From assembly GCA_012646105.1 (NCBI GenBank), contig GCA_012646105.1_4328.1: a DNA stretch of 43,583 nucleotides, one strand, 5' to 3'. Positions within the stretch are counted from its first letter, which is position 1. Every line of letters starts with the position of its first letter. The notes below the pieces were generated by a model that was not told the DNA's origin, did no database searches, and saw nothing but the letters and a program-made list of their open reading frames with translations. Source of the DNA: a phage. Positions 5,919-29,864 of this stretch are shown in pieces. Both the position numbers and the translations under genes were made by a program.

Positions 5919-8255
5919 TTAATACCCCGGCTGATTTCGTGTAGCCCGGCGGGACTTGGAGATTGCACTGTTGCTGTCTTGTAACGCCGCCGATACTGTT
6001 TCGCTGATGATAACACGTAACCGCCCTTCGTCGTCACGCTCTGTAACGGCAGAATCGACACGTCCGGTGGTGTTGTTGACGATTGTCACGCTGTCACCGC
6101 CTGACTTGTTGCCGTTCTCACCCATAATCTGGCGCATCTGTTCCGCGGTACGTACGCGTGACGCCCCCGCAGGCATAATAACTTCCGGCTTGTTACGTTC
6201 GGCGATAGTGGATAGCTGGCCTGCGGCTAAGTTACCGCCCTGCTCACGGGCCGAACGAATTTTGCCTATGTTTGCAAGACCCGCAGCTACCGCTGCGGCT
6301 GCCGCTACAGGCCCAAGTACCCAGCCGACAATAGGAATAGCGGACGCTGATTTATAAGCCTCAATAGCGGAGGTGTATGTGGCGATGGTGGCCTGAGCAA
6401 TGGCAAACGCTTTGTACGCAGTAGACGCTTCGCCAAGCGACGATTTAATGTTATCTGCCATCATTCCGAAAGCGTTACCTGTAGCATTGGCGCGCTTCAA
6501 AGCATACTGGTCGTTTATAGCATTAACCGCGGCCTGGTACTGTTCCTCGTTAATCAGATTCTGTTCGCGGTATCGGTCCGCAACGTCCAGTTTTTGTTGT
6601 TCCTGAATTTCCAGAAGCTCAAGCTCGGCGGCATTCTGGCCCATAATCTGTGCCATGAAGTCTTCACCTTTCTGGTTCTTCTCCTGCCGCTCTTTCTCGC
6701 GCTTAGCGAGTTCTTCCTGACGTGCGGTGTCCGCCTCTAGCATAATCTGCGTCTTGGCGTTTTCGTATTGCTGGTCGCTAAGAAGCTGATTGCCGTAAAA
6801 CTCCTGTAGCTTGGTTAACTGCTGTTCCTGGTTGGCTTCTATTTTCTGGAATACATCATCATTGAGATGAATAGACTGGTAGTAGAAATCCTCAGCGGCT
6901 TTCTTCTGGCGCTCGAATGCATCCGCAGCTTTCTTAGCGGCTTTTGCGCCAGCGCTACCATCTTCAGACCCGCCGCCGATACCAGTTACCTTAAATTTAC
7001 TAAGCCCTTCTTCCTTAGCGGCTTCTTTGTCGATGTCATATGCCGCGCGTTTAAGCGCGACGATATTTTGCTGAGCCTCCACCTGTTCGCGGAAACTTTT
7101 ACGTGTCAGGTCCGCAACATCGCGCTGAGTATCCAGTGCCATCCCCAGCTGGAAGTTAATATTTTTTGCTACGTCTACGGATTCCCCTGGTGTGAAGGCG
7201 GCCTTAACCAGCCGACCGGCATCCTGCGCCCCTTCAACCATATCCTCAAAGAAGCGCTCCATCGCGGTAAATTCTTCCGCGATGAAATCGAGCGCATCGG
7301 CGGCTGATTCCGCTATGGTTGTCGCCGTTTGTTCGCCGCTATCCGTGATACTTTTGCTACTAAAATCCCAAAGCTCATTTAGCCCGTTTATCGCATCACC
7401 AACGAAGCCAAACGCAGCGTCGAACGACATCTCTATAGCGCTTCCTACTTCTGACGCGATGTCGCCCCACATACGCATCTCAGCGGCAAGCTCACCAGAC
7501 GCTACCTGTGCGTTAAGTTCCTGGATTAAATCATCGATGTACCGGATAGGTTCAGCAAGAGCACCAACATCAAGGCTGGTAGCCAGTGTCATTTTTAACT
7601 GCGACCAAGAATCGCTTGCACTGGCTATAGCCCCGTTGAGTGTGTTGGCCTGGTCCGCCATAGCCCCCGCGAAGTTTACGTTACCAATATTGAGCAGGTA
7701 TTGCTCAATATCGGCAGCGCTCTTCTTAACCACCGTAGTAGTGCCCTGGAACGTGAATTCAACATCGTTTTTGTTCTGCTTGGCCTTGATACCAAATTCT
7801 TTAAGACGCTCGAATTCAAACGTACTGGCGTCCGCAACGGCCTCAATCATCTGATTCAGGTCTTTACCCATAGCAGCGGCGGTGTTTCCGTAGGAACGCA
7901 ACGCTTCTTCTGACGGTGTAAGACCAAGCGCCACAAGTTTACGGAATCCCTCTACCGCCTGTTCAAGGCCATACGGAGTGTCGCGCGCGAAGTCTTGCAG
8001 GATGCTTAACGCCTGTCTTGCACCCTGCGTGCTTCCGGTTAGTGTTTTCAGGCTGGCGGACATCTTGTCCAGTTGCCGTTGGGATTCTACCAGTTCCTGT
8101 GCGGCCTTGTACGCGGTAGCGGCGACGATGGAAGCGAGGCCCGCTACCGCAGCTCCGGCTACTTTTGCGGACTTGGAAAGGTTATCAAGACGGTCTGATG
8201 TAGCTTTCGCGCCTTGCTCTGATACTTTTACAACTAAACTAGCCACATCAGCCAT
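5919..8255 (-). CDS. tail length tape measure protein (778 aa)
   Basis: long alpha-helical/coiled-coil protein with Ala/Gln/Glu-rich repeats, N-terminal region typical of tape measure proteins, preceded by chaperone pair. Confidence 0.85.
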   Translation of the reverse strand: MADVASLVVKVSEQGAKATSDRLDNLSKSAKVAGAAVAGLASIVAATAYKAAQELVESQRQLDKMSASLKTLTGSTQGARQALSILQDFARDTPYGLEQAVEGFRKLVALGLTPSEEALRSYGNTAAAMGKDLNQMIEAVADASTFEFERLKEFGIKAKQNKNDVEFTFQGTTTVVKKSAADIEQYLLNIGNVNFAGAMADQANTLNGAIASASDSWSQLKMTLATSLDVGALAEPIRYIDDLIQELNAQVASGELAAEMRMWGDIASEVGSAIEMSFDAAFGFVGDAINGLNELWDFSSKSITDSGEQTATTIAESAADALDFIAEEFTAMERFFEDMVEGAQDAGRLVKAAFTPGESVDVAKNINFQLGMALDTQRDVADLTRKSFREQVEAQQNIVALKRAAYDIDKEAAKEEGLSKFKVTGIGGGSEDGSAGAKAAKKAADAFERQKKAAEDFYYQSIHLNDDVFQKIEANQEQQLTKLQEFYGNQLLSDQQYENAKTQIMLEADTARQEELAKREKERQEKNQKGEDFMAQIMGQNAAELELLEIQEQQKLDVADRYREQNLINEEQYQAAVNAINDQYALKRANATGNAFGMMADNIKSSLGEASTAYKAFAIAQATIATYTSAIEAYKSASAIPIVGWVLGPVAAAAAVAAGLANIGKIRSAREQGGNLAAGQLSTIAERNKPEVIMPAGASRVRTAEQMRQIMGENGNKSGGDSVTIVNNTTGRVDSAVTERDDEGRLRVIISETVSAALQDSNSAISKSRRATRNQPGY

Positions 8256-8607
8256 CGTTTCTACCCTCGAAAATAGCGTCTAAGCTCATGATGATGTCGG
8301 ATTCAAACATGCCTATATTCTGGCCTGAAACGGCGCTGTACGCCACTAAATCCGACCATCTTAACTGTTCGCGCGGGTACATCTTGATGCCATCATCGTC
8401 CACTCGGCGGGTGAATTTGATTTCCCTGTACTTCTCGAAGGTGGTTAATAGCTCAGGGGGGCATTCTGGCCCGGTGTCCTGCGTTGCTTCCGGCGCGTCT
8501 TGCATAACCCCCATAGCAATTAGCGCGGCTTTATGCCCGTCGGCGATACTGTCAAACTCCCGCCGTTTGTGGCGGGTTATGAAGTTCCAACGGGCAAACT
8601 GGAGCAA
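8248..8607 (-). CDS. tail assembly chaperone, second ORF (gpT-like; TTG start or -1 frameshift extension of upstream ORF)
   Basis: ORF in -1 frame relative to 8613..9029, begins at its stop codon, overlaps tape measure start by 8 nt. Confidence 0.5.
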   Translation of the reverse strand: MLQFARWNFITRHKRREFDSIADGHKAALIAMGVMQDAPEATQDTGPECPPELLTTFEKYREIKFTRRVDDDGIKMYPREQLRWSDLVAYSAVSGQNIGMFESDIIMSLDAIFEGRNDG

Positions 8608-8612
8608 CGCGT

Positions 8613-9029
8613 CTACTTTTCCTGCAATTGGCGAAGCTGTTCGTTATGGAAAACAACAACATGTTCAGCTAGACGTTTATATTGAGAGAAAAGAGTATTC
8701 AGGTTCTCTTTATTAAATTCATCGTCGAGACTCCAACCGTTAACCAGTTCAAGTGCTAACTGGCGGTTAAGGTCCGTCGCGGCGTCTTCCATCTTAATGT
8801 TGTATTCCGAGAAATCTTTCAGTTCCTCGCATTTATCACGAAGCGGTTTCAATTTACCTAATGCTGCTCGGTACGCCAGGGTAAACGCCCTCATAGCTTT
8901 AACGGCAACGTCGGCATCGGGGGAGACAACGTTAAGCCATTCTCCTGAATCGGTGCCGTCTTTCAGCGGGATTGGCATACGGGCGCCTTTTTCGGCCTCA
9001 GCTTCGTAATAAAAATCAGAAAGTTTCAT
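8613..9029 (-). CDS. tail assembly chaperone (gpG-like, 138 aa)
   Basis: acidic small protein directly upstream of the second chaperone ORF and tape measure; conserved G/GT position. Confidence 0.55.
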   Translation of the reverse strand: MKLSDFYYEAEAEKGARMPIPLKDGTDSGEWLNVVSPDADVAVKAMRAFTLAYRAALGKLKPLRDKCEELKDFSEYNIKMEDAATDLNRQLALELVNGWSLDDEFNKENLNTLFSQYKRLAEHVVVFHNEQLRQLQEK

Positions 9030-9136
9030 TATTTAATCCTTTGGTTAAGAGGTTACTGGTTAAGGTTAATGCGCCAGGCGGGAACCACCCGCTTTTCGTG
9101 TGCGACACTAGGCGCAAAATAATTCTAACACATTAC

Positions 9137-9165
9137 TTGCGCACCCCAACATAATAGGATACTAT
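9137..9165 (+). promoter_or_regulatory. sigma70-like promoter TTGCGC-N17-TACTAT with embedded AATAG-N4-CTATT operator-like palindrome
   Basis: -35 at 9137-9142, -10 at 9160-9165, 40 nt upstream of ATG 9206; near-identical copies at 18181, 28837 and 29836. Confidence 0.5.
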
Positions 9166-9205
9166 TCACTTACACCAACGATGTTATCTTAAACGGGGCT
9201 ATATC

Positions 9206-9397
9206 ATGACAAGCATTACTATGTTCTTCTTAATCATTATTGTTTTAGTTTATTTTATTCCGTTTCTCGTGGCGCATATGCGCAACCATAAAGCTAAATT
9301 AGCGATATTCATGGCTAATCTGTTTCTCGGTTGGGTTCTGCTGCCGTGGGTATTTATTTTAATCTGGGCGTGCAACTCGAATGTCAAAGAGAAGTGA
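9206..9397 (+). CDS. small inner-membrane protein resembling superinfection-immunity family proteins (63 aa, 2 TM)
   Basis: two hydrophobic helices; motif VAHMRNH...AIFMANLFLGWVLLPW matches my recollection of the Imm_superinfect family; opposite strand to flanking tail genes. Confidence 0.55.
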   Translation: MTSITMFFLIIIVLVYFIPFLVAHMRNHKAKLAIFMANLFLGWVLLPWVFILIWACNSNVKEK

Positions 9398-9435
9398 GCT
9401 AGTATAGGACAAATCCTAAACACGAGGAAGTAAGC

Positions 9436-10566
9436 ATGGCCCAGAAGAAAATAACCGACGAACAGTTGCAGGAAGAATTGAACGCCGGGATGAAGAATAT
9501 CGACATCGCCCGTAAATACGGCATCTCAGACCGCGTTATTCGTATTCGTAAAGCAAAACTAGCTAAGAAAGGCGTAGGCCACGGGCGTGACGTCAGTCAC
9601 CTTGTGCCAGACGGCTACAAGATTAAAGGCACGTCGTCACTGGTGGACGAGTTCGGCAACACTAAGTTGCAATGGGTTAAGACCGACACTGACGCCGAAC
9701 GTCAGGTCGAGTTGATGAAAGCCGTAATCGAGGGCATGAAGTCAGAGATTAAACCGGTTGCGCCTGTTAAAGCGGCCCGAGCCAAACGTGACGATAAACT
9801 ACTCAATCTTTACACTGTATCTGATTTCCATCTCGGTATGCTGGCCTGGGCTGACGAGAGCGGCGACGACTGGGACATGAGGATTGCGGAAGACCTGTTC
9901 TCCCTCTGGTTCGATGCGGCGTTTCAGAAAGCGCCAGATGCAGGAACAGGGGTTATTAACCTGCTGGGCGACCTTGCGCACTTCGATAGTCTGGATGCCG
10001 TTACCCCAGCGAGCGGTCATATTCTTGACGCTGACACGCGCTACCAGAAACTGGTCCGCTACATGATTCGTATGGTCCGCCGTGTTGTCGATATGGCCCT
10101 CGTTAAGCATAAAAATGTTCGCCTGCTTATCGTGCAAGGGAACCACGACGAAAGTGGAATGATTTGGTTAGCTGAGATGTTCAGTACGCTGTACGACAAT
10201 GAGCCTCGTGTGTTCGTCGATACGTCACCGGATGTTTACAAGATGGTGCAACACGGCAAAACTACGCTGTTCTTCCATCACGGGCATAAAGCACGATTCG
10301 ACGCTATTGAACCGGTTATGATTGCCAAGTTCCGCAAAGCGTTCGGCGAAAGCGAGTACAGCTACGCCCATGTAGGGCACCTGCACCATCAGAAGATTGT
10401 AGAAAGCCGTAACATGATTGTTGAACAACACCGCACATTAGCGGCAAAAGATGCCTACGCCTCCCGCGGCGGATGGATGTCGGGCCGTAGCGCAAACGTA
10501 ATTACTTATAGCGCCGAATATGGCGAGATCGCACGTTTAACGATTTCACCGGAGATGCTGGGATGA
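9436..10566 (+). CDS. N-terminal HTH fused to calcineurin-like metallophosphoesterase (376 aa)
   Basis: HTH-like segment aa 18-45; phosphoesterase motifs D130-x-H132, G178-D179, G235-N-H-D238, H281-H-G-H284, G314-H-L-H317; RBS AGGAAG upstream. Confidence 0.7.
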   Translation: MAQKKITDEQLQEELNAGMKNIDIARKYGISDRVIRIRKAKLAKKGVGHGRDVSHLVPDGYKIKGTSSLVDEFGNTKLQWVKTDTDAERQVELMKAVIEGMKSEIKPVAPVKAARAKRDDKLLNLYTVSDFHLGMLAWADESGDDWDMRIAEDLFSLWFDAAFQKAPDAGTGVINLLGDLAHFDSLDAVTPASGHILDADTRYQKLVRYMIRMVRRVVDMALVKHKNVRLLIVQGNHDESGMIWLAEMFSTLYDNEPRVFVDTSPDVYKMVQHGKTTLFFHHGHKARFDAIEPVMIAKFRKAFGESEYSYAHVGHLHHQKIVESRNMIVEQHRTLAAKDAYASRGGWMSGRSANVITYSAEYGEIARLTISPEMLG

Positions 10567-10793
10567 CTTCAAAATACAACCGCACAATGACAAACACTCA
10601 CGGAAGCACTATGACCGTAGACGTTTATGATGTGCTACGTGCCTTCGACATCCGTGACCCTGCGCTACAGCATGCATTGAAGAAACTATTGTGCATGGGC
10701 TTGCGGGGGCACAAAGACACCGGAACCGACTTAGCGGAAGCAATTGAAAGTCTGGAGAAGTTACGGGAGTACCGGAGTAACATTGATGAGTGA
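10563..10793 (+). CDS. hypothetical protein (76 aa), translationally coupled to phosphoesterase gene
   Basis: ATGA start/stop overlap with 9436..10566. Confidence 0.5.
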   Translation: MTSKYNRTMTNTHGSTMTVDVYDVLRAFDIRDPALQHALKKLLCMGLRGHKDTGTDLAEAIESLEKLREYRSNIDE

Positions 10794-10800
10794 GGCTGTA

Positions 10801-10962
10801 ATGAAAACAATATACGTAATCCGTGTATATGATGAAGAATGGGACGAGTGGGTTGATATTTATGCCGTAGGTAGTAAGGAAGAGGCCTCTAAAGAGATGG
10901 CAGAACGGAGTGACCGAGGTCAGTTAACTAACTTCTACGAAATGCCATTTAAAAGTGAGTAA
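10801..10962 (+). CDS. small acidic hypothetical protein (53 aa; alternative ATG at 10786)
   Basis: GAGG 5 nt upstream of ATG 10801; acidic stretch DEEWDEWVD; followed by terminator hairpin. Confidence 0.45.
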   Translation: MKTIYVIRVYDEEWDEWVDIYAVGSKEEASKEMAERSDRGQLTNFYEMPFKSE

Positions 10963-10965
10963 GAA

Positions 10966-10985
10966 AAGGCCCCGAAAGGGACCTT
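10966..10985. terminator. bidirectional stem-loop terminator between plus-strand cassette and major tail gene
   Basis: AAGGCCCC-GAAA-GGGACCTT hairpin (G-U wobble on minus-strand RNA) flanked by T-rich runs on both strands. Confidence 0.5.
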
Positions 10986-10989
10986 AGTT

Positions 10990-12162
10990 TTATGCGTAGG
11001 TGATACGCTGGATAACGATAGACGACTGGTACTGATTGCCTGTGGACTGCCCTTCTATACTCTGGGTTATTGATTCCGGGCCAGATATTTCTGGGGTGAC
11101 CGCCGTAAGCTCTGCGCGTTTCAGACTAAAAGACATGGCCCCATTTACCCCCGCCAGAATAGAGTTAATCTCCACCTGCTGCTCGTTGATAAACTTCTGA
11201 ATCATCACCATGTCGTACAGCTTGCCGGAGATGGAGAAGGTATTAGCCGCGCGACCACGTTCCACGAACGCAACGCTACTGTTGCCTAGTTCGAACTGAG
11301 CAGATGCGCCGTTGTCGTTGGTGATGGTCAGAGTATCGCAACGCAACGGCGTAGAACCGTCGAACACAGACACATCTACAGATGAGAACGGCTCGTCAGT
11401 GAACGTAACCCGGGAGAAGTCGGAACCTGCTGGCGGCTCGGTGAGAATTTCCTGACTCAGACCGATGAACGGGAAGCTGCCTGTCACCATCGCGTTCACG
11501 GCCTGCTCGATAGTAAAACCGGAGATTTCCACGCCTTTGGTCAACATGTACGCGCTAGGGTTCCCGCACTGTCCTTTGAACCATGTCAGGATAGAGAACG
11601 TCTTACATGCGTTACCTGTTTCCAGTTTATCCCCGGTCTTAGCCTTACTGGTTTTTGTCTCTGTCGTCAGCGTGTGCTGAATGCCAGCGCCTGTTACTAC
11701 GAGCGCCTCGACCGCGGTCACGATAAACGGTTTTGCGTTGTCGCCGGTTAAGTCGGTGAATGCAATCAGGTCGCCAACCTCTACACCGTCAGCAATGAAG
11801 CTACCGGCAGCGCGGGTGAATGTTTTACCTGCTGGAGCGACCGTAATTTCAGCACCCGTAATCTCTACCCCATCCTGCCACGTAGAAGTCATAGCACCCG
11901 CAAGGAAATCATCCTGGCTACGTGAGCTAAGTTCGATGGCGTACTCCCCGCTAACCTGTTTGTTACCGGTGCGGATGGATGTGGTTTCTCTGCTGCCGTC
12001 GAGTTCGTTGGAAGTCAGCGCATCACGGGTTACCGCGGGAACACCGCCGGTGTTACGCAACGGCGACCATACCGGGTTACTTGGTGTTACGCCCGGGGTA
12101 ACTTCCGCCACATAGAATTGCGCGGTATTCGCGCCCTTAAAAGGAGTTGTAGCCATATTCAC
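10990..12162 (-). CDS. major tail (tube) protein (390 aa)
   Basis: size, Thr/Ser/Gly-rich beta-type composition, position upstream of chaperones, terminator directly downstream. Confidence 0.6.
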   Translation of the reverse strand: MNMATTPFKGANTAQFYVAEVTPGVTPSNPVWSPLRNTGGVPAVTRDALTSNELDGSRETTSIRTGNKQVSGEYAIELSSRSQDDFLAGAMTSTWQDGVEITGAEITVAPAGKTFTRAAGSFIADGVEVGDLIAFTDLTGDNAKPFIVTAVEALVVTGAGIQHTLTTETKTSKAKTGDKLETGNACKTFSILTWFKGQCGNPSAYMLTKGVEISGFTIEQAVNAMVTGSFPFIGLSQEILTEPPAGSDFSRVTFTDEPFSSVDVSVFDGSTPLRCDTLTITNDNGASAQFELGNSSVAFVERGRAANTFSISGKLYDMVMIQKFINEQQVEINSILAGVNGAMSFSLKRAELTAVTPEISGPESITQSIEGQSTGNQYQSSIVIQRITYA

Positions 12163-18180: not shown

Positions 18181-18209
18181 TTGCATACTCCAATATAATA
18201 GGGTACTAT
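18181..18209 (+). promoter_or_regulatory. promoter TTGCAT-N17-TACTAT with embedded operator-like palindrome
   Basis: -35 at 18181-18186, -10 at 18204-18209, RBS AGGAG at 18224-18228, ATG 18237. Confidence 0.5.
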
Positions 18210-18236
18210 TCAGTTAACTTAAACAGGAGATGAGAA

Positions 18237-18758
18237 ATGGTTACTACGGTAATTACTTTCCCTGCGTATGTAGGGGCGAAAATCTGCAGGGCTAAAAACG
18301 ATGTGCGCTACTATTTGAACGCTTTTTACATAGAACCTGAGGGGTTGATAGTGTCTACGGATGGGCATAGATTGTTCTGCGACAATGTGAAGACAAACGT
18401 TGAGAAAGGGGTTCTCATTGATATCAAAGGGAGAGAGCCTTCTAAATTTAACTACGCAGAGGTAGACCACGACAACGGCAGTGTTTCTTTCTATGACGAT
18501 AGTCGCGCGCTTATATGTACACTTCCGGTAGATGTTGTAGAAGGAAACTTTCCTGACTGGAGACGCGTGGCGCACATCACACCGGGTGTTGTCGATAGTA
18601 TAGGGTTCACTCTGCGTTATTTGGCAGACGCGTACAAGATTTCTAAGGCGTACAAAAATGAAATTTCTCGTTTCGATTTCCAGGACCAAACCAGAGGATG
18701 CAAAATATCATTTTCAAACACGGCCTTTATGGTGTTAATGCCCGCGCGATTTAAATAA
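18237..18758 (+). CDS. hypothetical protein (173 aa), counter-oriented insertion in head module
   Basis: strong RBS, own promoter and terminator; no motif recognised. Confidence 0.6.
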   Translation: MVTTVITFPAYVGAKICRAKNDVRYYLNAFYIEPEGLIVSTDGHRLFCDNVKTNVEKGVLIDIKGREPSKFNYAEVDHDNGSVSFYDDSRALICTLPVDVVEGNFPDWRRVAHITPGVVDSIGFTLRYLADAYKISKAYKNEISRFDFQDQTRGCKISFSNTAFMVLMPARFK

Positions 18759-28836: not shown

Positions 28837-28865
28837 ATAGTAGCCTATTCTATCTTAGTGTGCAA
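28837..28865 (-). promoter_or_regulatory. promoter TTGCAC-N17-TACTAT (minus strand) overlapping GAATAG-N4-CTATTC palindrome
   Basis: -35 at 28865-28860, -10 at 28842-28837. Confidence 0.5.
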
Positions 28866-29835: not shown

Positions 29836-29864
29836 ATAGTAACCTATTATGTTGGGGTGTGCAA
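29836..29864 (-). promoter_or_regulatory. promoter TTGCAC-N17-TACTAT (minus strand) with embedded operator palindrome
   Basis: spacer ACCCCAACATAATAGG is almost identical to that of the 9137 promoter. Confidence 0.5.

What the first reader, a model, noticed from the sequence alone, without database searches (positions are those of the whole stretch)
9137..10985. Counter-oriented four-gene cassette inserted between major tail gene and tail chaperones
A plus-strand unit sits inside the minus-strand tail module: promoter (9137-9165), a 63 aa two-TM protein resembling superinfection-immunity proteins, a 376 aa HTH-metallophosphoesterase fusion, and two coupled small ORFs (76 aa and about 53 aa, the latter acidic), ending at a bidirectional terminator. 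Its promoter is the same conserved early type that drives the leftward early operons, so it is probably expressed early or constitutively, unlike the flanking late genes. This moron-like layout is typical of host-interaction, exclusion or counter-defence cargo, and the gene combination is not one I recognise as a described system.
Basis: partly seen in the sequence, partly recalled or inferred. Interest (0 to 1): 0.8.

Follow-up and report, generated by a model that had tools for sequence, protein, structure and literature searches.

The report
Conserved early gene island in tail module
The counter-oriented cassette is real, but it is a fixed and already annotated feature of this whole phage subfamily: a T4-type superinfection-immunity gene, a widespread phage nuclease-like phosphoesterase and two small add-on genes, not a new four-gene system.

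Summary
The window is a Kagunavirus (Guernseyvirinae) genome. The plus-strand unit at 9137-10985 exists as described. It has a promoter-like repeat, four ORFs with Shine-Dalgarno sites and a terminal hairpin, and it lies between the tail-tube and tail-chaperone genes.

It is not a coherent new system:
- **Position and content.** Kagunavirus, Jerseyvirus and a Pantoea relative all carry a cassette here. Only the 376-aa HTH-metallophosphoesterase is constant; the first gene and the 3' genes vary.
- **Different spreads.** In the phage collection the four genes occur in 371, 2045, 774 and 23 records.
- **63-aa protein.** It is a true T4 Imm homologue.
- **Phosphoesterase.** It belongs to the phage T1 gp16 family (PHROG 704). 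All catalytic motifs are intact. Its fold is closest to the nucleases PolD-DP1, Mre11 and SbcD. Elsewhere it sits in replication, recombination or nucleotide-metabolism modules.
- **Promoter.** It carries a palindrome, AATAG-N4-CTATT, found only at the seven non-structural promoters of the genome.

The most likely reading is an early unit encoding superinfection exclusion plus a DNA-acting nuclease. I infer host-DNA breakdown or end processing, analogous to T5 A1; no experiment shows it.

Side finding: a covarying int-alpA-type RNA lies just upstream, on the opposite strand.

The parts
9137..9166 (+). Cassette promoter with embedded palindrome. The -35 is TTGCGC (9137-9142) and the -10 is TACTAT (9160-9165), 17 nt apart. 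The palindrome AATAGGATACTATT spans 9153-9166.
   Evidence: A 27/29 copy lies at 29836-29864 (-), with 0 expected by chance. It belongs to a motif family. The palindrome AATAG-N4-CTATT has 7 exact copies; allowing one mismatch there are 12 sites, against a mean of 1.1 in shuffles. It is conserved in relatives. The fBC-Eco01 record annotates a PHIRE promoter at the same spot.
9206..9397 (+). 63-aa inner-membrane protein with two transmembrane helices; homologue of T4 Imm (superinfection immunity).
   Evidence: PF14373 scores 51.7 bits against a cut-off of 27.9. phrog_1039 matches at E 2e-23. BLASTP against T4 Imm gives 28% identity over 54 aa, E 9e-12, and T4 Imm hits the same Pfam model.
9436..10566 (+). 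376-aa protein. Residues 8-44 form an N-terminal LuxR/GerE-like HTH. A beta-hairpin and helix follow (61-102). Residues 119-376 form the metallophosphoesterase domain, with all five catalytic motifs intact. It belongs to the T1 gp16 / Rtp61 family.
10563..10793 (+). 76-aa small protein of unknown function (phrog_2452). Its start overlaps the phosphoesterase stop (ATGA), so the two are translationally coupled.
   Evidence: The family is conserved with invariant KY...DVYDVL...QHALKKL...GHK...D motifs. It occurs in 774 phage records, often away from the phosphoesterase gene. There is no Pfam hit and no PDB fold match.
10801..10962 (+). 53-aa acidic small ORF (pI 4.5), an accessory gene restricted to Kagunavirus.
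   Evidence: GAGG lies 5 nt upstream of the ATG. Homologues occur in only 23 phage records, all Kagunavirus-type. Bas74 lacks it. No family hits.
10966..10985 (.). GC-rich hairpin (GAAA loop) between the convergent cassette and tail-tube genes; a likely two-way terminator.
   Evidence: The terminator scan calls it on the minus strand. Folding gives z -3.1 on the minus strand and -1.9 on the plus strand. ARNold terminators are annotated on both strands in fBC-Eco01.
9054..9118 (-). Neighbouring element, not part of the cassette: an int-alpA-type structured RNA (Rfam RF02996) between the cassette promoter and the start of the tail-chaperone gene.
   Evidence: 36.9 bits against a gathering score of 35.8, with the full model matched. 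Four of 15 pairs show compensatory changes across 8 Guernseyvirinae, and the G-U pairs are valid only on the minus strand.
29836..29864 (-). Sister promoter of the same class, driving a leftward block of small ORFs.
28837..28865 (-). Sister promoter of the same class, driving a further leftward block of small ORFs.
18181..18209 (+). Sister promoter of the same class, driving a second counter-oriented gene (18237-18758, RusA-like) inside the head module.

Best explanation
The region is a conserved non-structural transcription unit, most likely early. All examined Guernseyvirinae carry one in the gap between the tail-tube gene and the tail-chaperone genes. It is read by host RNA polymerase from a sigma-70-like promoter. 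The -10 element of that promoter lies inside a palindromic operator (AATAG-N4-CTATT), which is shared only with the promoters of the replication genes and the small-ORF operons. The cassette is therefore co-regulated with those genes and not with the flanking tail genes.

Its genes are independent functions, not one system:
1. **Imm homologue.** A T4 Imm homologue sits in the inner membrane and most likely blocks DNA entry by superinfecting phages.
2. **HTH-metallophosphoesterase.** This T1 gp16-family protein is an active two-metal phosphodiesterase tethered to DNA by its HTH. It most likely works as an Mre11/DP1-like DNA nuclease early in infection. I favour breakdown of host DNA to feed nucleotide salvage, as shown for the T5 metallophosphatase A1. 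The second choice is end processing for recombination-dependent replication.
3. **Small ORFs.** The 76-aa and 53-aa ORFs are swappable accessory genes of unknown role.

What is shown: the anatomy, the homologies, conservation of the catalytic motifs, the fold, the shared operator and the comparative layout. What is inferred: timing of expression, nuclease activity, substrate and exclusion activity.
For: - **Anatomy and promoter family:**
- **Operator:** there are 7 exact copies, all at intergenic promoter-like sites of non-structural units. Three lie inside TTGACA/TTGACG-17-TATAGT/TATATT promoters ahead of replication genes (gene map). The same half-sites occur at the Jerseyvirus cassette promoter.
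- **Imm:**
- **Phosphoesterase motifs:** all are conserved across 40 distant homologues, including the Mre11-like GD-x-x-H histidine.
- **Phosphoesterase fold:** it is closest to the nucleases DP1, Mre11 and SbcD.
- **Purifying selection:** 96-100% amino-acid identity among Kagunavirus proteins, against about 88-91% DNA identity.
- **Spread and context:** it occurs in 2045 phage records. Its neighbours include helicase, VRR-NUC, endonuclease VII, exonuclease, DNA polymerase and PDDEXK nuclease. It is often followed by nucleotide-pool enzymes: HAD_PNKP phosphatase, dNMP kinase, or dGTP diphosphohydrolase / MazG-like proteins.
- **T5 precedent:** the predicted metallophosphatase A1 is necessary and sufficient for host DNA degradation and lies near the dNMP phosphatase gene dmp (bioRxiv 10.64898/2026.04.02.716235). 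Some A1-family members also carry N-terminal HTH domains.
- **Independence of the four genes:**
- **Transcription:** the Imm gene is transcribed and grouped with DNA polymerase and methylase genes, not with the bulk of the genes, in a Kagunavirus RNA-seq study (PMC12645636).
Against: - No experiment on any member of the gp16 family was found.
- The protein lacks an Mre11 capping domain, and the phage has no Rad50/SbcC or DP2 partner.
- Sequence relation to T5 A1 is weak and partial: hhalign probability 33%, over the C-terminal half only.
- The promoter matches only 7 of 12 consensus positions.
- The one transcriptome has coarse timing (5-120 min) and labels the Imm gene 'late'.
- Imm function has been shown only for T4, and PF14373 is a short membrane-protein model.
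Confidence: 0.45

Rival explanations
1. Counter-defence enzyme. The metallophosphoesterase degrades nucleotide immune signals (cyclic oligonucleotides, cNMPs, cADPR-type molecules) or restores nucleotide pools, and the cassette is anti-defence cargo.
For: - The promoter is of the early type.
- The slot carries variable accessory genes.
Against: - A conserved DNA-binding HTH is fused to the enzyme.
- The gene is near-universal in several phage families and sits in DNA-metabolism modules rather than variable islands.
- There are no PADLOC hits.
- Kagunavirus phages remain broadly sensitive to tested defences (PMC11990801), although signalling systems were not specifically addressed there.
Confidence: 0.1
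2. Nucleic-acid end healing. The metallophosphoesterase opens 2',3'-cyclic phosphate or 3'-phosphate ends, as the phosphoesterase domain of bacterial Pnkp does. Together with a Pnkp-type phosphatase and a kinase it repairs tRNA or DNA cut by host nucleases.
For: Three different phage families have the order phosphoesterase, HAD_PNKP phosphatase, P-loop kinase. These are Kagunavirus ST20 / EcoPhCCP1, Webervirus Call and Gajwadongvirus PP99 (where a ligase follows); a metagenomic podovirus also has HAD_PNKP next to it. The HAD protein matches Pnkp1 and the T4 Pnkp phosphatase domain.
Against: - The window itself and most relatives lack the phosphatase and kinase.
- The kinase matches the dNMP-kinase PHROG rather than polynucleotide kinase.
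- There is no RNA ligase.
- An HTH suits DNA better than tRNA.
- The same trio fits nucleotide salvage equally well.
Confidence: 0.12
3. Regulator. The HTH of the 376-aa protein binds the AATAG-N4-CTATT operators and switches the early promoters off (or on). The phosphoesterase domain is a sensor or a secondary activity.
For: - The operator lies over the -10 or in the spacer of all seven non-structural promoters, including the cassette's own.
- The HTH is of the LuxR/GerE/sigma-70 region 4 type, which binds inverted repeats as dimers.
- T5 A1 is also needed for shut-off of pre-early transcription (record note; section heading).
Against: - The phage has other small HTH proteins that could be the regulator.
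- T1-like and Dhillonvirus loci with the same protein family show no such palindrome in the stretches examined.
- The catalytic residues are strictly conserved, so the enzymatic activity is the selected function.
Confidence: 0.15
4. Protein phosphatase of the lambda NinI type, acting on host proteins.
For: In one lambdoid-like contig the gene sits directly upstream of an antiterminator Q gene, the position of ninI in lambda (the lambda layout is from my own knowledge).
Confidence: 0.03

Closest known systems
Phage T4 Imm (immunity to superinfection), Pfam PF14373
   Same: It is a small two-helix inner-membrane protein. Direct sequence similarity is 28% over 54 aa (E 9e-12), and both match the same Pfam model above cut-off. 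Both genes are in virulent phages and lie next to DNA-metabolism genes.
   Different: It is 63 aa rather than 83 aa, and its N-terminal helix is variable among relatives. The exclusion activity and its target phages are untested. Some Jerseyvirus and Pantoea relatives carry a signal-peptide protein in this slot instead.
Phage T1 gp16 / Rtp gp61, PHROG 704 ('DNA repair exonuclease')
   Same: It is a full-length family member (E 5e-167; about 45% identity to Rtp61) with the same HTH-plus-phosphoesterase architecture.
   Different: In Drexlerviridae the gene lies between the helicase / VRR-NUC genes and the lysis genes, on the same strand as its neighbours. In Dhillonvirus it lies before the terminase genes. 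Only in Guernseyvirinae is it counter-oriented inside the tail module. I found no experimentally determined function for any member.
Phage T5 A1 (pre-early metallophosphatase that degrades host DNA)
   Same: - It is a predicted two-metal phosphoesterase.
- It is an early gene.
- It is preceded by a small two-helix membrane protein, and a nucleotide phosphatase gene (dmp) lies nearby.
- Some A1-family members carry N-terminal HTH domains.
   Different: It belongs to a different sequence family (PHROG 1745 against 704). Profile-profile similarity is weak and limited to motifs III-V (probability 33%). A1 is 556 aa, and it is also needed for second-step DNA transfer, a T5-specific process.
Mre11 / SbcD / T4 gp47 and archaeal PolD DP1 nucleases
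   Different: There is no capping domain, no Rad50/SbcC or DP2 partner in the genome and an extra N-terminal HTH. Sequence similarity is at superfamily level only (E 0.009).
Morons of lambdoid phages (autonomous units inserted in late operons)
   Same: It has its own promoter and terminator, lies between two late genes, is counter-oriented, and its first and last genes vary among relatives.
   Different: The phage is virulent, so there is no prophage-state expression. The central gene is fixed across the subfamily, has the same G+C content as its flanks and is a DNA-metabolism gene found widely in phages.

Membership tests
T4 Imm family (Pfam PF14373) | Matches the family model above the curated cut-off. 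| tested here: met
   51.7 bits against a cut-off of 27.9. T4 Imm itself scores 58.2 on the same model.
T4 Imm family (Pfam PF14373) | Direct sequence similarity to T4 Imm. | tested here: met
   BLASTP gives 28% identity over 54 aa, E 9e-12.
T4 Imm family (Pfam PF14373) | Two transmembrane helices joined by a short basic loop. | tested here: met
   Read directly from the sequence: hydrophobic stretches at about 4-23 and 32-55, with the loop HMRNHKAK.
T4 Imm family (Pfam PF14373) | Blocks DNA entry of superinfecting phage. | not testable with these tools
   Needs plating and DNA-entry assays.
T1 gp16 / PHROG 704 HTH-metallophosphoesterase | Full-length match to the family profile with the same domain order. 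| tested here: met
   E 4.8e-167, residues 3-375 on profile positions 1-389 of 390. It aligns end to end with Rtp61 and other Drexlerviridae proteins.
Metallophosphoesterase superfamily (active enzymes) | The five metal-binding and catalytic motifs: DxH, GD, GNH(D/E), H, GHxH. | tested here: met
   D130, H132, G178, D179, N236, H237, H282, G314 and H317 are invariant, and H315 nearly invariant, in 40 homologues.
Mre11 / SbcD nucleases | Closest fold relatives are Mre11 / SbcD. | tested here: inconclusive
Mre11 / SbcD nucleases | C-terminal capping domain after the phosphoesterase core. | tested here: not met
   The model ends at residue 376, directly after the last core strands.
Mre11 / SbcD nucleases | Rad50/SbcC-type ATPase partner encoded with it. 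| tested here: not met
   No such gene appears in the ORF list of the window or in the full annotation of the relative Bas74.
T5 A1 family (PHROG 1745) | Sequence membership. | tested here: not met
   A1 hits PHROG 1745 only, and the window protein hits 704. hhalign between the two family alignments gives probability 33% over 118 columns.
T5 A1 family (PHROG 1745) | Degrades host DNA when expressed. | not testable with these tools
   Needs expression and DNA-content assays like those in bioRxiv 10.64898/2026.04.02.716235.
Moron | Own promoter and terminator between genes of a late operon. | tested here: met
   Met at sequence level only: the promoter family and the hairpin, with late genes on both sides.
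Moron | Present in some close relatives and absent in others. | tested here: not met
   The phosphoesterase cassette is present at this site in all Kagunavirus, Jerseyvirus and Pantoea AH01 genomes opened. Only the first and last genes vary. Absence or different cargo is seen only in distant relatives.
Known anti-phage defence or counter-defence proteins | Match to a PADLOC model. | tested here: not met
   No hit for any of the four proteins at E up to 1. PADLOC holds host defence systems, so this test says little about counter-defence.
int-alpA RNA (Rfam RF02996), neighbouring element | Score at or above the gathering threshold, with the full model matched. | tested here: met
   36.9 bits against 35.8, model positions 1-71. 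The margin is narrow: among 8 related loci only L004 also passed.
int-alpA RNA (Rfam RF02996), neighbouring element | Base pairs supported by covariation. | tested here: met
   Four of 15 pairs show compensatory changes in 8 sequences, with G-U pairs on the minus strand.

The most novel reading that the evidence does not exclude
The HTH-metallophosphoesterase is the missing host-takeover nuclease of T1-like, Dhillonvirus and Guernseyvirinae phages. On this reading it is a functional counterpart of T5 A1: it destroys the host chromosome early, and through its HTH it also binds the AATAG-N4-CTATT operators to shut down early transcription. That would assign a function to a gene present in more than 2000 sequenced phage genomes. 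It would also make Imm plus nuclease a minimal early 'lock the door and strip the host' module.
Probability: 0.15. Interest if true: 0.6.

Novelty: already known. Interest (0 to 1): 0.3.

Why it matters
As a genome feature it matters little. The cassette and its gene families are already annotated in hundreds of deposited Guernseyvirinae genomes, and the window's proteins are 96-100% identical to database entries.

What remains open is the function of the phosphoesterase. This T1 gp16-type protein is one of the more widespread phage genes with no experimentally determined function that I could find (2045 of 50,697 phage records). Kagunavirus phages are small and tractable, are now in the BASEL collection and are used for synthetic-biology work.

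If the protein is a host-DNA-degrading or regulatory nuclease, three things would follow:
- It would explain how these small siphoviruses obtain nucleotides.
- It would predict their visibility to defences that sense genome breakdown (Metis, PUA-Cal-HAD).
- It would tell engineers that this 'non-structural island' in the tail module cannot simply be deleted.

The shared palindromic operator and the int-alpA-type RNA next to the cassette are cheap, testable leads on how these phages time their transcription.

Tried and rejected
- **PADLOC, NCBIfam and PDB sequence searches of the four proteins.** These gave nothing beyond a weak FixJ/GerE-type HTH match.
- **Is the 76-aa protein a remnant of the P-loop kinase found in ST20-type relatives?** No similarity.
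- **Is the 76-aa protein DUF3310-like?** One GenBank record says so, and the motif looked similar to me. hhalign against a DUF3310 protein gave probability 0.3%, and no member hits the Pfam model.
- **Fold of the 76-aa protein.** The model is confident (pLDDT 88), but no PDB match reaches E < 0.3.
- **Specific homology to T5 A1.** Only weak, partial profile similarity. A control against T4 gp47 was equally weak, so neither can be called the closer family.
- **Scan of viral contigs with the phosphoesterase alignment.** I replaced it with eight single-protein context look-ups.
- **Supplementary files of the Kagunavirus RNA-seq paper.** They hold no per-gene phage expression values for the cassette.
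- **Literature searches.** I found no experimental work on the T1 gp16 family, Drexlerviridae metallophosphoesterases or Guernseyvirinae transcription.
- **Atypical base composition as a sign of recent acquisition.** The phosphoesterase gene has the same G+C as its flanks. Only the Imm gene with the intergenic region, and the last ORF, are more A+T-rich.
- **The small ORF annotated in some records upstream of Imm** (for example Bas74_0024). It overlaps the conserved RNA structure and the promoter, so I treat it as spurious.
Full report
**What the window is.** A megablast of 9000-11100 finds 433 phage records. The best are Escherichia phages of genus Kagunavirus (subfamily Guernseyvirinae) at 88-91% DNA identity, followed by Salmonella Jerseyvirus phages. 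The window is about the size of a whole genome of this group. Its gene order mirrors that of Bas74, whose full annotation I used as a map.

**Checking the observation.**
- 9206-9397 (63 aa);
- 9436-10566 (376 aa);
- 10563-10793 (76 aa, start overlapping the previous stop as ATGA);
- 10801-10962 (53 aa, GAGG 5 nt upstream).

The flanks are minus-strand late genes: a tail assembly chaperone (PF08748), a second chaperone ORF (PF23812), and the tail tube (PF18906).

The promoter at 9137-9165 reads TTGCGC-17-TACTAT. That is only 7 of 12 consensus positions, and the generic scan missed it. A 27/29 copy lies at 29836-29864 on the other strand, where none is expected by chance. Two further copies lie at 18181-18209 (+) and 28837-28865 (-).

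The hairpin at 10966-10985 is real. It is stronger on the minus strand, where a G-U pair replaces a C-A mismatch. The fBC-Eco01 record annotates terminators on both strands at this spot.

**The promoter belongs to a regulon.** The conserved core of the repeat is a perfect palindrome, AATAG-N4-CTATT. The window has seven exact copies. Allowing one mismatch there are 12 sites, against a mean of 1.1 in shuffles. All seven are intergenic.
- Four have the form TTGC(A/G)C-17-TACTAT, with the palindrome over the -10. These drive the cassette, a second counter-oriented gene at 18237-18758, and two leftward blocks of small ORFs.
- Three have near-consensus promoters (TTGACA/TTGACG-17-TATAGT/TATATT) with the palindrome in the spacer. 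These lie ahead of the rightward replication and recombination genes (with for gene identities).

Bas74 also has seven copies. The Jerseyvirus cassette promoters keep the half-sites while the central four bases differ. This is what an operator for a dimeric regulator looks like.

The fBC-Eco01 paper already listed the motif as a PHIRE 'phage promoter' consensus with seven copies (PMC9825357). That these operons are 'early' is an inference.

The only transcriptome of a Kagunavirus uses coarse sampling (5-120 min). It groups the Imm gene with DNA polymerase and methylase genes in a class separate from the bulk of the genes (PMC12645636). This shows a transcript exists and fits co-regulation with replication genes. 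It does not fix the timing.

**The four proteins.**

*The 63-aa protein* is a genuine T4 Imm homologue. It passes the PF14373 cut-off, matches phrog_1039 and aligns directly with T4 Imm (E 9e-12). T4 Imm hits the same model.

*The 376-aa protein* matches PHROG 704 end to end (E 5e-167). It is the homologue of Rtp gp61, which that record describes as highly similar to T1 gp16.
- Its N-terminus is a LuxR/GerE/FixJ-like HTH. A distant 482-aa homologue has precomputed Sigma70_r4 and HTH_11 hits.
- An alignment with 39 representatives of 34-49% identity keeps every metal-binding and catalytic residue. It also keeps the histidine of a GD-x-x-H motif that is typical of Mre11.
- The fold therefore leans towards nucleases but does not prove it. 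The protein has no capping domain, and the phage has no Rad50/SbcC or DP2 partner.

*The 76-aa protein* belongs to phrog_2452. Its family is well conserved and models as a beta-hairpin plus three helices. It has no Pfam hit, no PDB fold match and no link to DUF3310.

*The 53-aa protein* is acidic (pI 4.5) and matches nothing.

**Is it one system?** No. In the phage collection the Imm homologue occurs in 371 records, the phosphoesterase in 2045, the 76-aa protein in 774 and the 53-aa protein in 23.

At this junction the phosphoesterase is the only constant:

| Phage | Cassette content |
|---|---|
| Bas74 | Imm, phosphoesterase, 76-aa protein |
| fBC-Eco01, SHAK7693 | Same, plus an extra 66-aa ORF |
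| ST20, EcoPhCCP1 | The 76-aa gene is replaced by a Pnkp-type HAD phosphatase and a P-loop dNMP-kinase-like protein |
| Hrm2 | Adds an HNH endonuclease |
| Jerseyvirus 'sidste' | Adds an HNH endonuclease and a Rha/ANT-type protein |
| Jerseyvirus AG11, Pantoea AH01 | Imm is replaced by a protein of about 110 aa with a signal peptide |

Shewanella phage 3/49 has a tail tube 66% identical to the window's but a different replication module. It carries two unrelated small ORFs in the slot and has no phosphoesterase and no Imm. Its homologue of the 76-aa protein lies in its early region instead. A Vibrio phage with a 33%-identical tube gene has no counter-oriented gene at the junction.

The junction is therefore an old insertion slot. 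The phosphoesterase became fixed there in Guernseyvirinae, and both edges keep exchanging small accessory genes. The phosphoesterase gene has the same G+C content as its flanks. It is under strong purifying selection: 96-100% protein identity against about 90% DNA identity.

**What the phosphoesterase does elsewhere.**
- In Drexlerviridae it lies between helicase / VRR-NUC genes and the lysis genes.
- In Dhillonvirus it lies just before the terminase genes.
- In the T7-like Pectobacterium phage PP99 the order is exonuclease, endonuclease VII, phosphoesterase, HAD phosphatase, dNMP kinase, ligase.
- In metagenomic contigs its neighbours vary. They include DNA polymerase, endonuclease VII, HAD_PNKP and a dGTP diphosphohydrolase; RNase H, a PIF1-type helicase and a MazG-like protein; an SNF2 helicase; and a PDDEXK nuclease. 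In one lambdoid-like contig it lies downstream of helicase and primase genes and directly before an antiterminator Q gene.

Two associations recur: DNA replication/recombination genes, and enzymes that act on nucleotide pools.

**Most likely mechanism.** I take the cassette to be an early unit under the shared operator. Imm most likely prevents DNA entry by later-arriving phages. The phosphoesterase is most likely a DNA-tethered two-metal nuclease.

The best precedent is T5 A1. It is a predicted metallophosphatase whose authors describe it as resembling double-strand-break-repair nucleases and polymerase proofreading subunits. It is necessary and sufficient for host-chromosome degradation, and it is encoded near the dNMP phosphatase gene dmp (bioRxiv 10.64898/2026.04.02.716235). 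In T5 a two-helix membrane protein (T5.005) immediately precedes A1. Some A1-family proteins on contigs of about 45 kb carry N-terminal HTH domains.

The two families are not demonstrably related beyond the superfamily. A control against T4 gp47 was equally weak. This is therefore a claim about how the protein works, not about family membership.

My rough weights for the phosphoesterase function are:
- host-DNA breakdown / nucleotide scavenging: 0.35;
- recombination or replication end processing: 0.2;
- operator-binding regulator as the main role: 0.15;
- end healing together with Pnkp-type partners: 0.12;
- immune-signal phosphodiesterase: 0.1;
- protein phosphatase or other: under 0.1.

**Novelty and interest.** Everything in the cassette is already annotated in public records under the same family names. 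The promoter motif has been published, and the arrangement is typical of a whole subfamily. What remains interesting is that a very widespread phage gene family still has no tested function, and that this phage group offers a simple setting to test it. I score interest at 0.3.

**Side findings.** Directly left of the cassette promoter, at 9054-9118 on the minus strand, Rfam finds an int-alpA RNA (36.9 bits against a gathering score of 35.8, full model). The element is almost invariant between genera. In eight Guernseyvirinae, 4 of 15 pairs carry compensatory changes, and several G-U pairs would be A-C mismatches on the other strand. It lies just upstream of the chaperone gene, so it may be the leader of the distal tail operon, which the cassette cuts off from the head-to-tube genes. 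Its function is unknown.

Noticed in passing
window 9054-9118 (-): There is an Rfam int-alpA RNA (RF02996) match just above threshold, lying between the cassette promoter and the tail-chaperone start codon. It is nearly invariant across Kagunavirus, Jerseyvirus and Pantoea phage AH01. Four compensatory pairs and strand-specific G-U pairs support it. It may be the 5' leader of the chaperone / tape-measure operon. Its inner hairpin followed by TTTT on the plus strand also looks like a plus-strand terminator, which I cannot explain.
   Followed up: partly
window 9153, 18197, 28836, 29835, 33307, 36136, 39842: The palindrome AATAG-N4-CTATT has seven exact copies, all at promoter-like intergenic sites of non-structural units. 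It lies over the -10 in four copies and in the spacer of near-consensus sigma-70 promoters in three. Bas74 has the same count, and the half-sites are kept in Jerseyvirus. This is a likely operator of an unidentified dimeric regulator. The motif was published only as a PHIRE 'phage RNA polymerase promoter', yet the Bas74 annotation lists no RNA polymerase gene.
   Followed up: partly
window 18181-18758 (+): A second counter-oriented gene lies inside the late (head) module: 173 aa, RusA-like (phrog_3007), with the same promoter class as the cassette. Bas74 has a different 67-aa gene at the corresponding place. This is a second accessory slot.
   Followed up: no
L005 3052-4106; L009 5166-6226; L014 4156-5312; L017 5176-6200: In three unrelated phage families (Kagunavirus ST20 type, Webervirus, Gajwadongvirus PP99) the phosphoesterase gene is followed by a Pnkp-type HAD phosphatase and a P-loop dNMP-kinase-like protein. 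In a metagenomic podovirus it is followed by HAD_PNKP and a dGTP diphosphohydrolase. The gene order is conserved across families, which suggests a shared pathway (nucleotide salvage or end healing).
   Followed up: partly
L016 1706-3670 (T5); L033 2429-3585 (T4): In T5 a two-helix membrane protein (T5.005) directly precedes the metallophosphatase gene A1. In T4 a predicted membrane protein (47.1) directly precedes the SbcD-like gene 47. This matches the Imm-then-phosphoesterase order seen in the window. It may be chance, because small membrane proteins are common in early regions.
   Followed up: no
P0378, P0380-P0382, P0384, P0408, P0420 (relatives of T5 A1): Proteins of about 530 aa and 44-48% identity to T5 A1 carry N-terminal HTH Pfam domains (HTH_23, HTH_38, HTH_7 and others). 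Other A1 relatives of similar length lie on contigs of 44-48 kb. The HTH-plus-metallophosphatase architecture therefore also exists in the A1 family.
   Followed up: no
L012 2109-2438 (AG11_23); L028 7512-7856 (AH01_41): In some Jerseyvirus phages and in Pantoea phage AH01, the first cassette gene is not Imm. It is a protein of about 110 aa with an N-terminal signal peptide followed by Cys-(D/E)-T-I, with no Pfam hit. It is a candidate periplasmic exclusion protein.
   Followed up: partly
window 8248-9029 (-): The two chaperone ORFs (138 aa, and 119 aa with a TTG start) are arranged like the frameshifted G/GT chaperone pair. In AH01 and Shewanella 3/49 the equivalent genes are annotated as a joined (frameshift) product. 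I did not look for the slippery site.
   Followed up: no
L007 (OR594180.1): The GenBank record of vB_EcoM_SHAK7693 is classified as Autographiviridae / Kayfunavirus and named as a myovirus. Its sequence and gene order are those of a Kagunavirus siphovirus.
   Followed up: no
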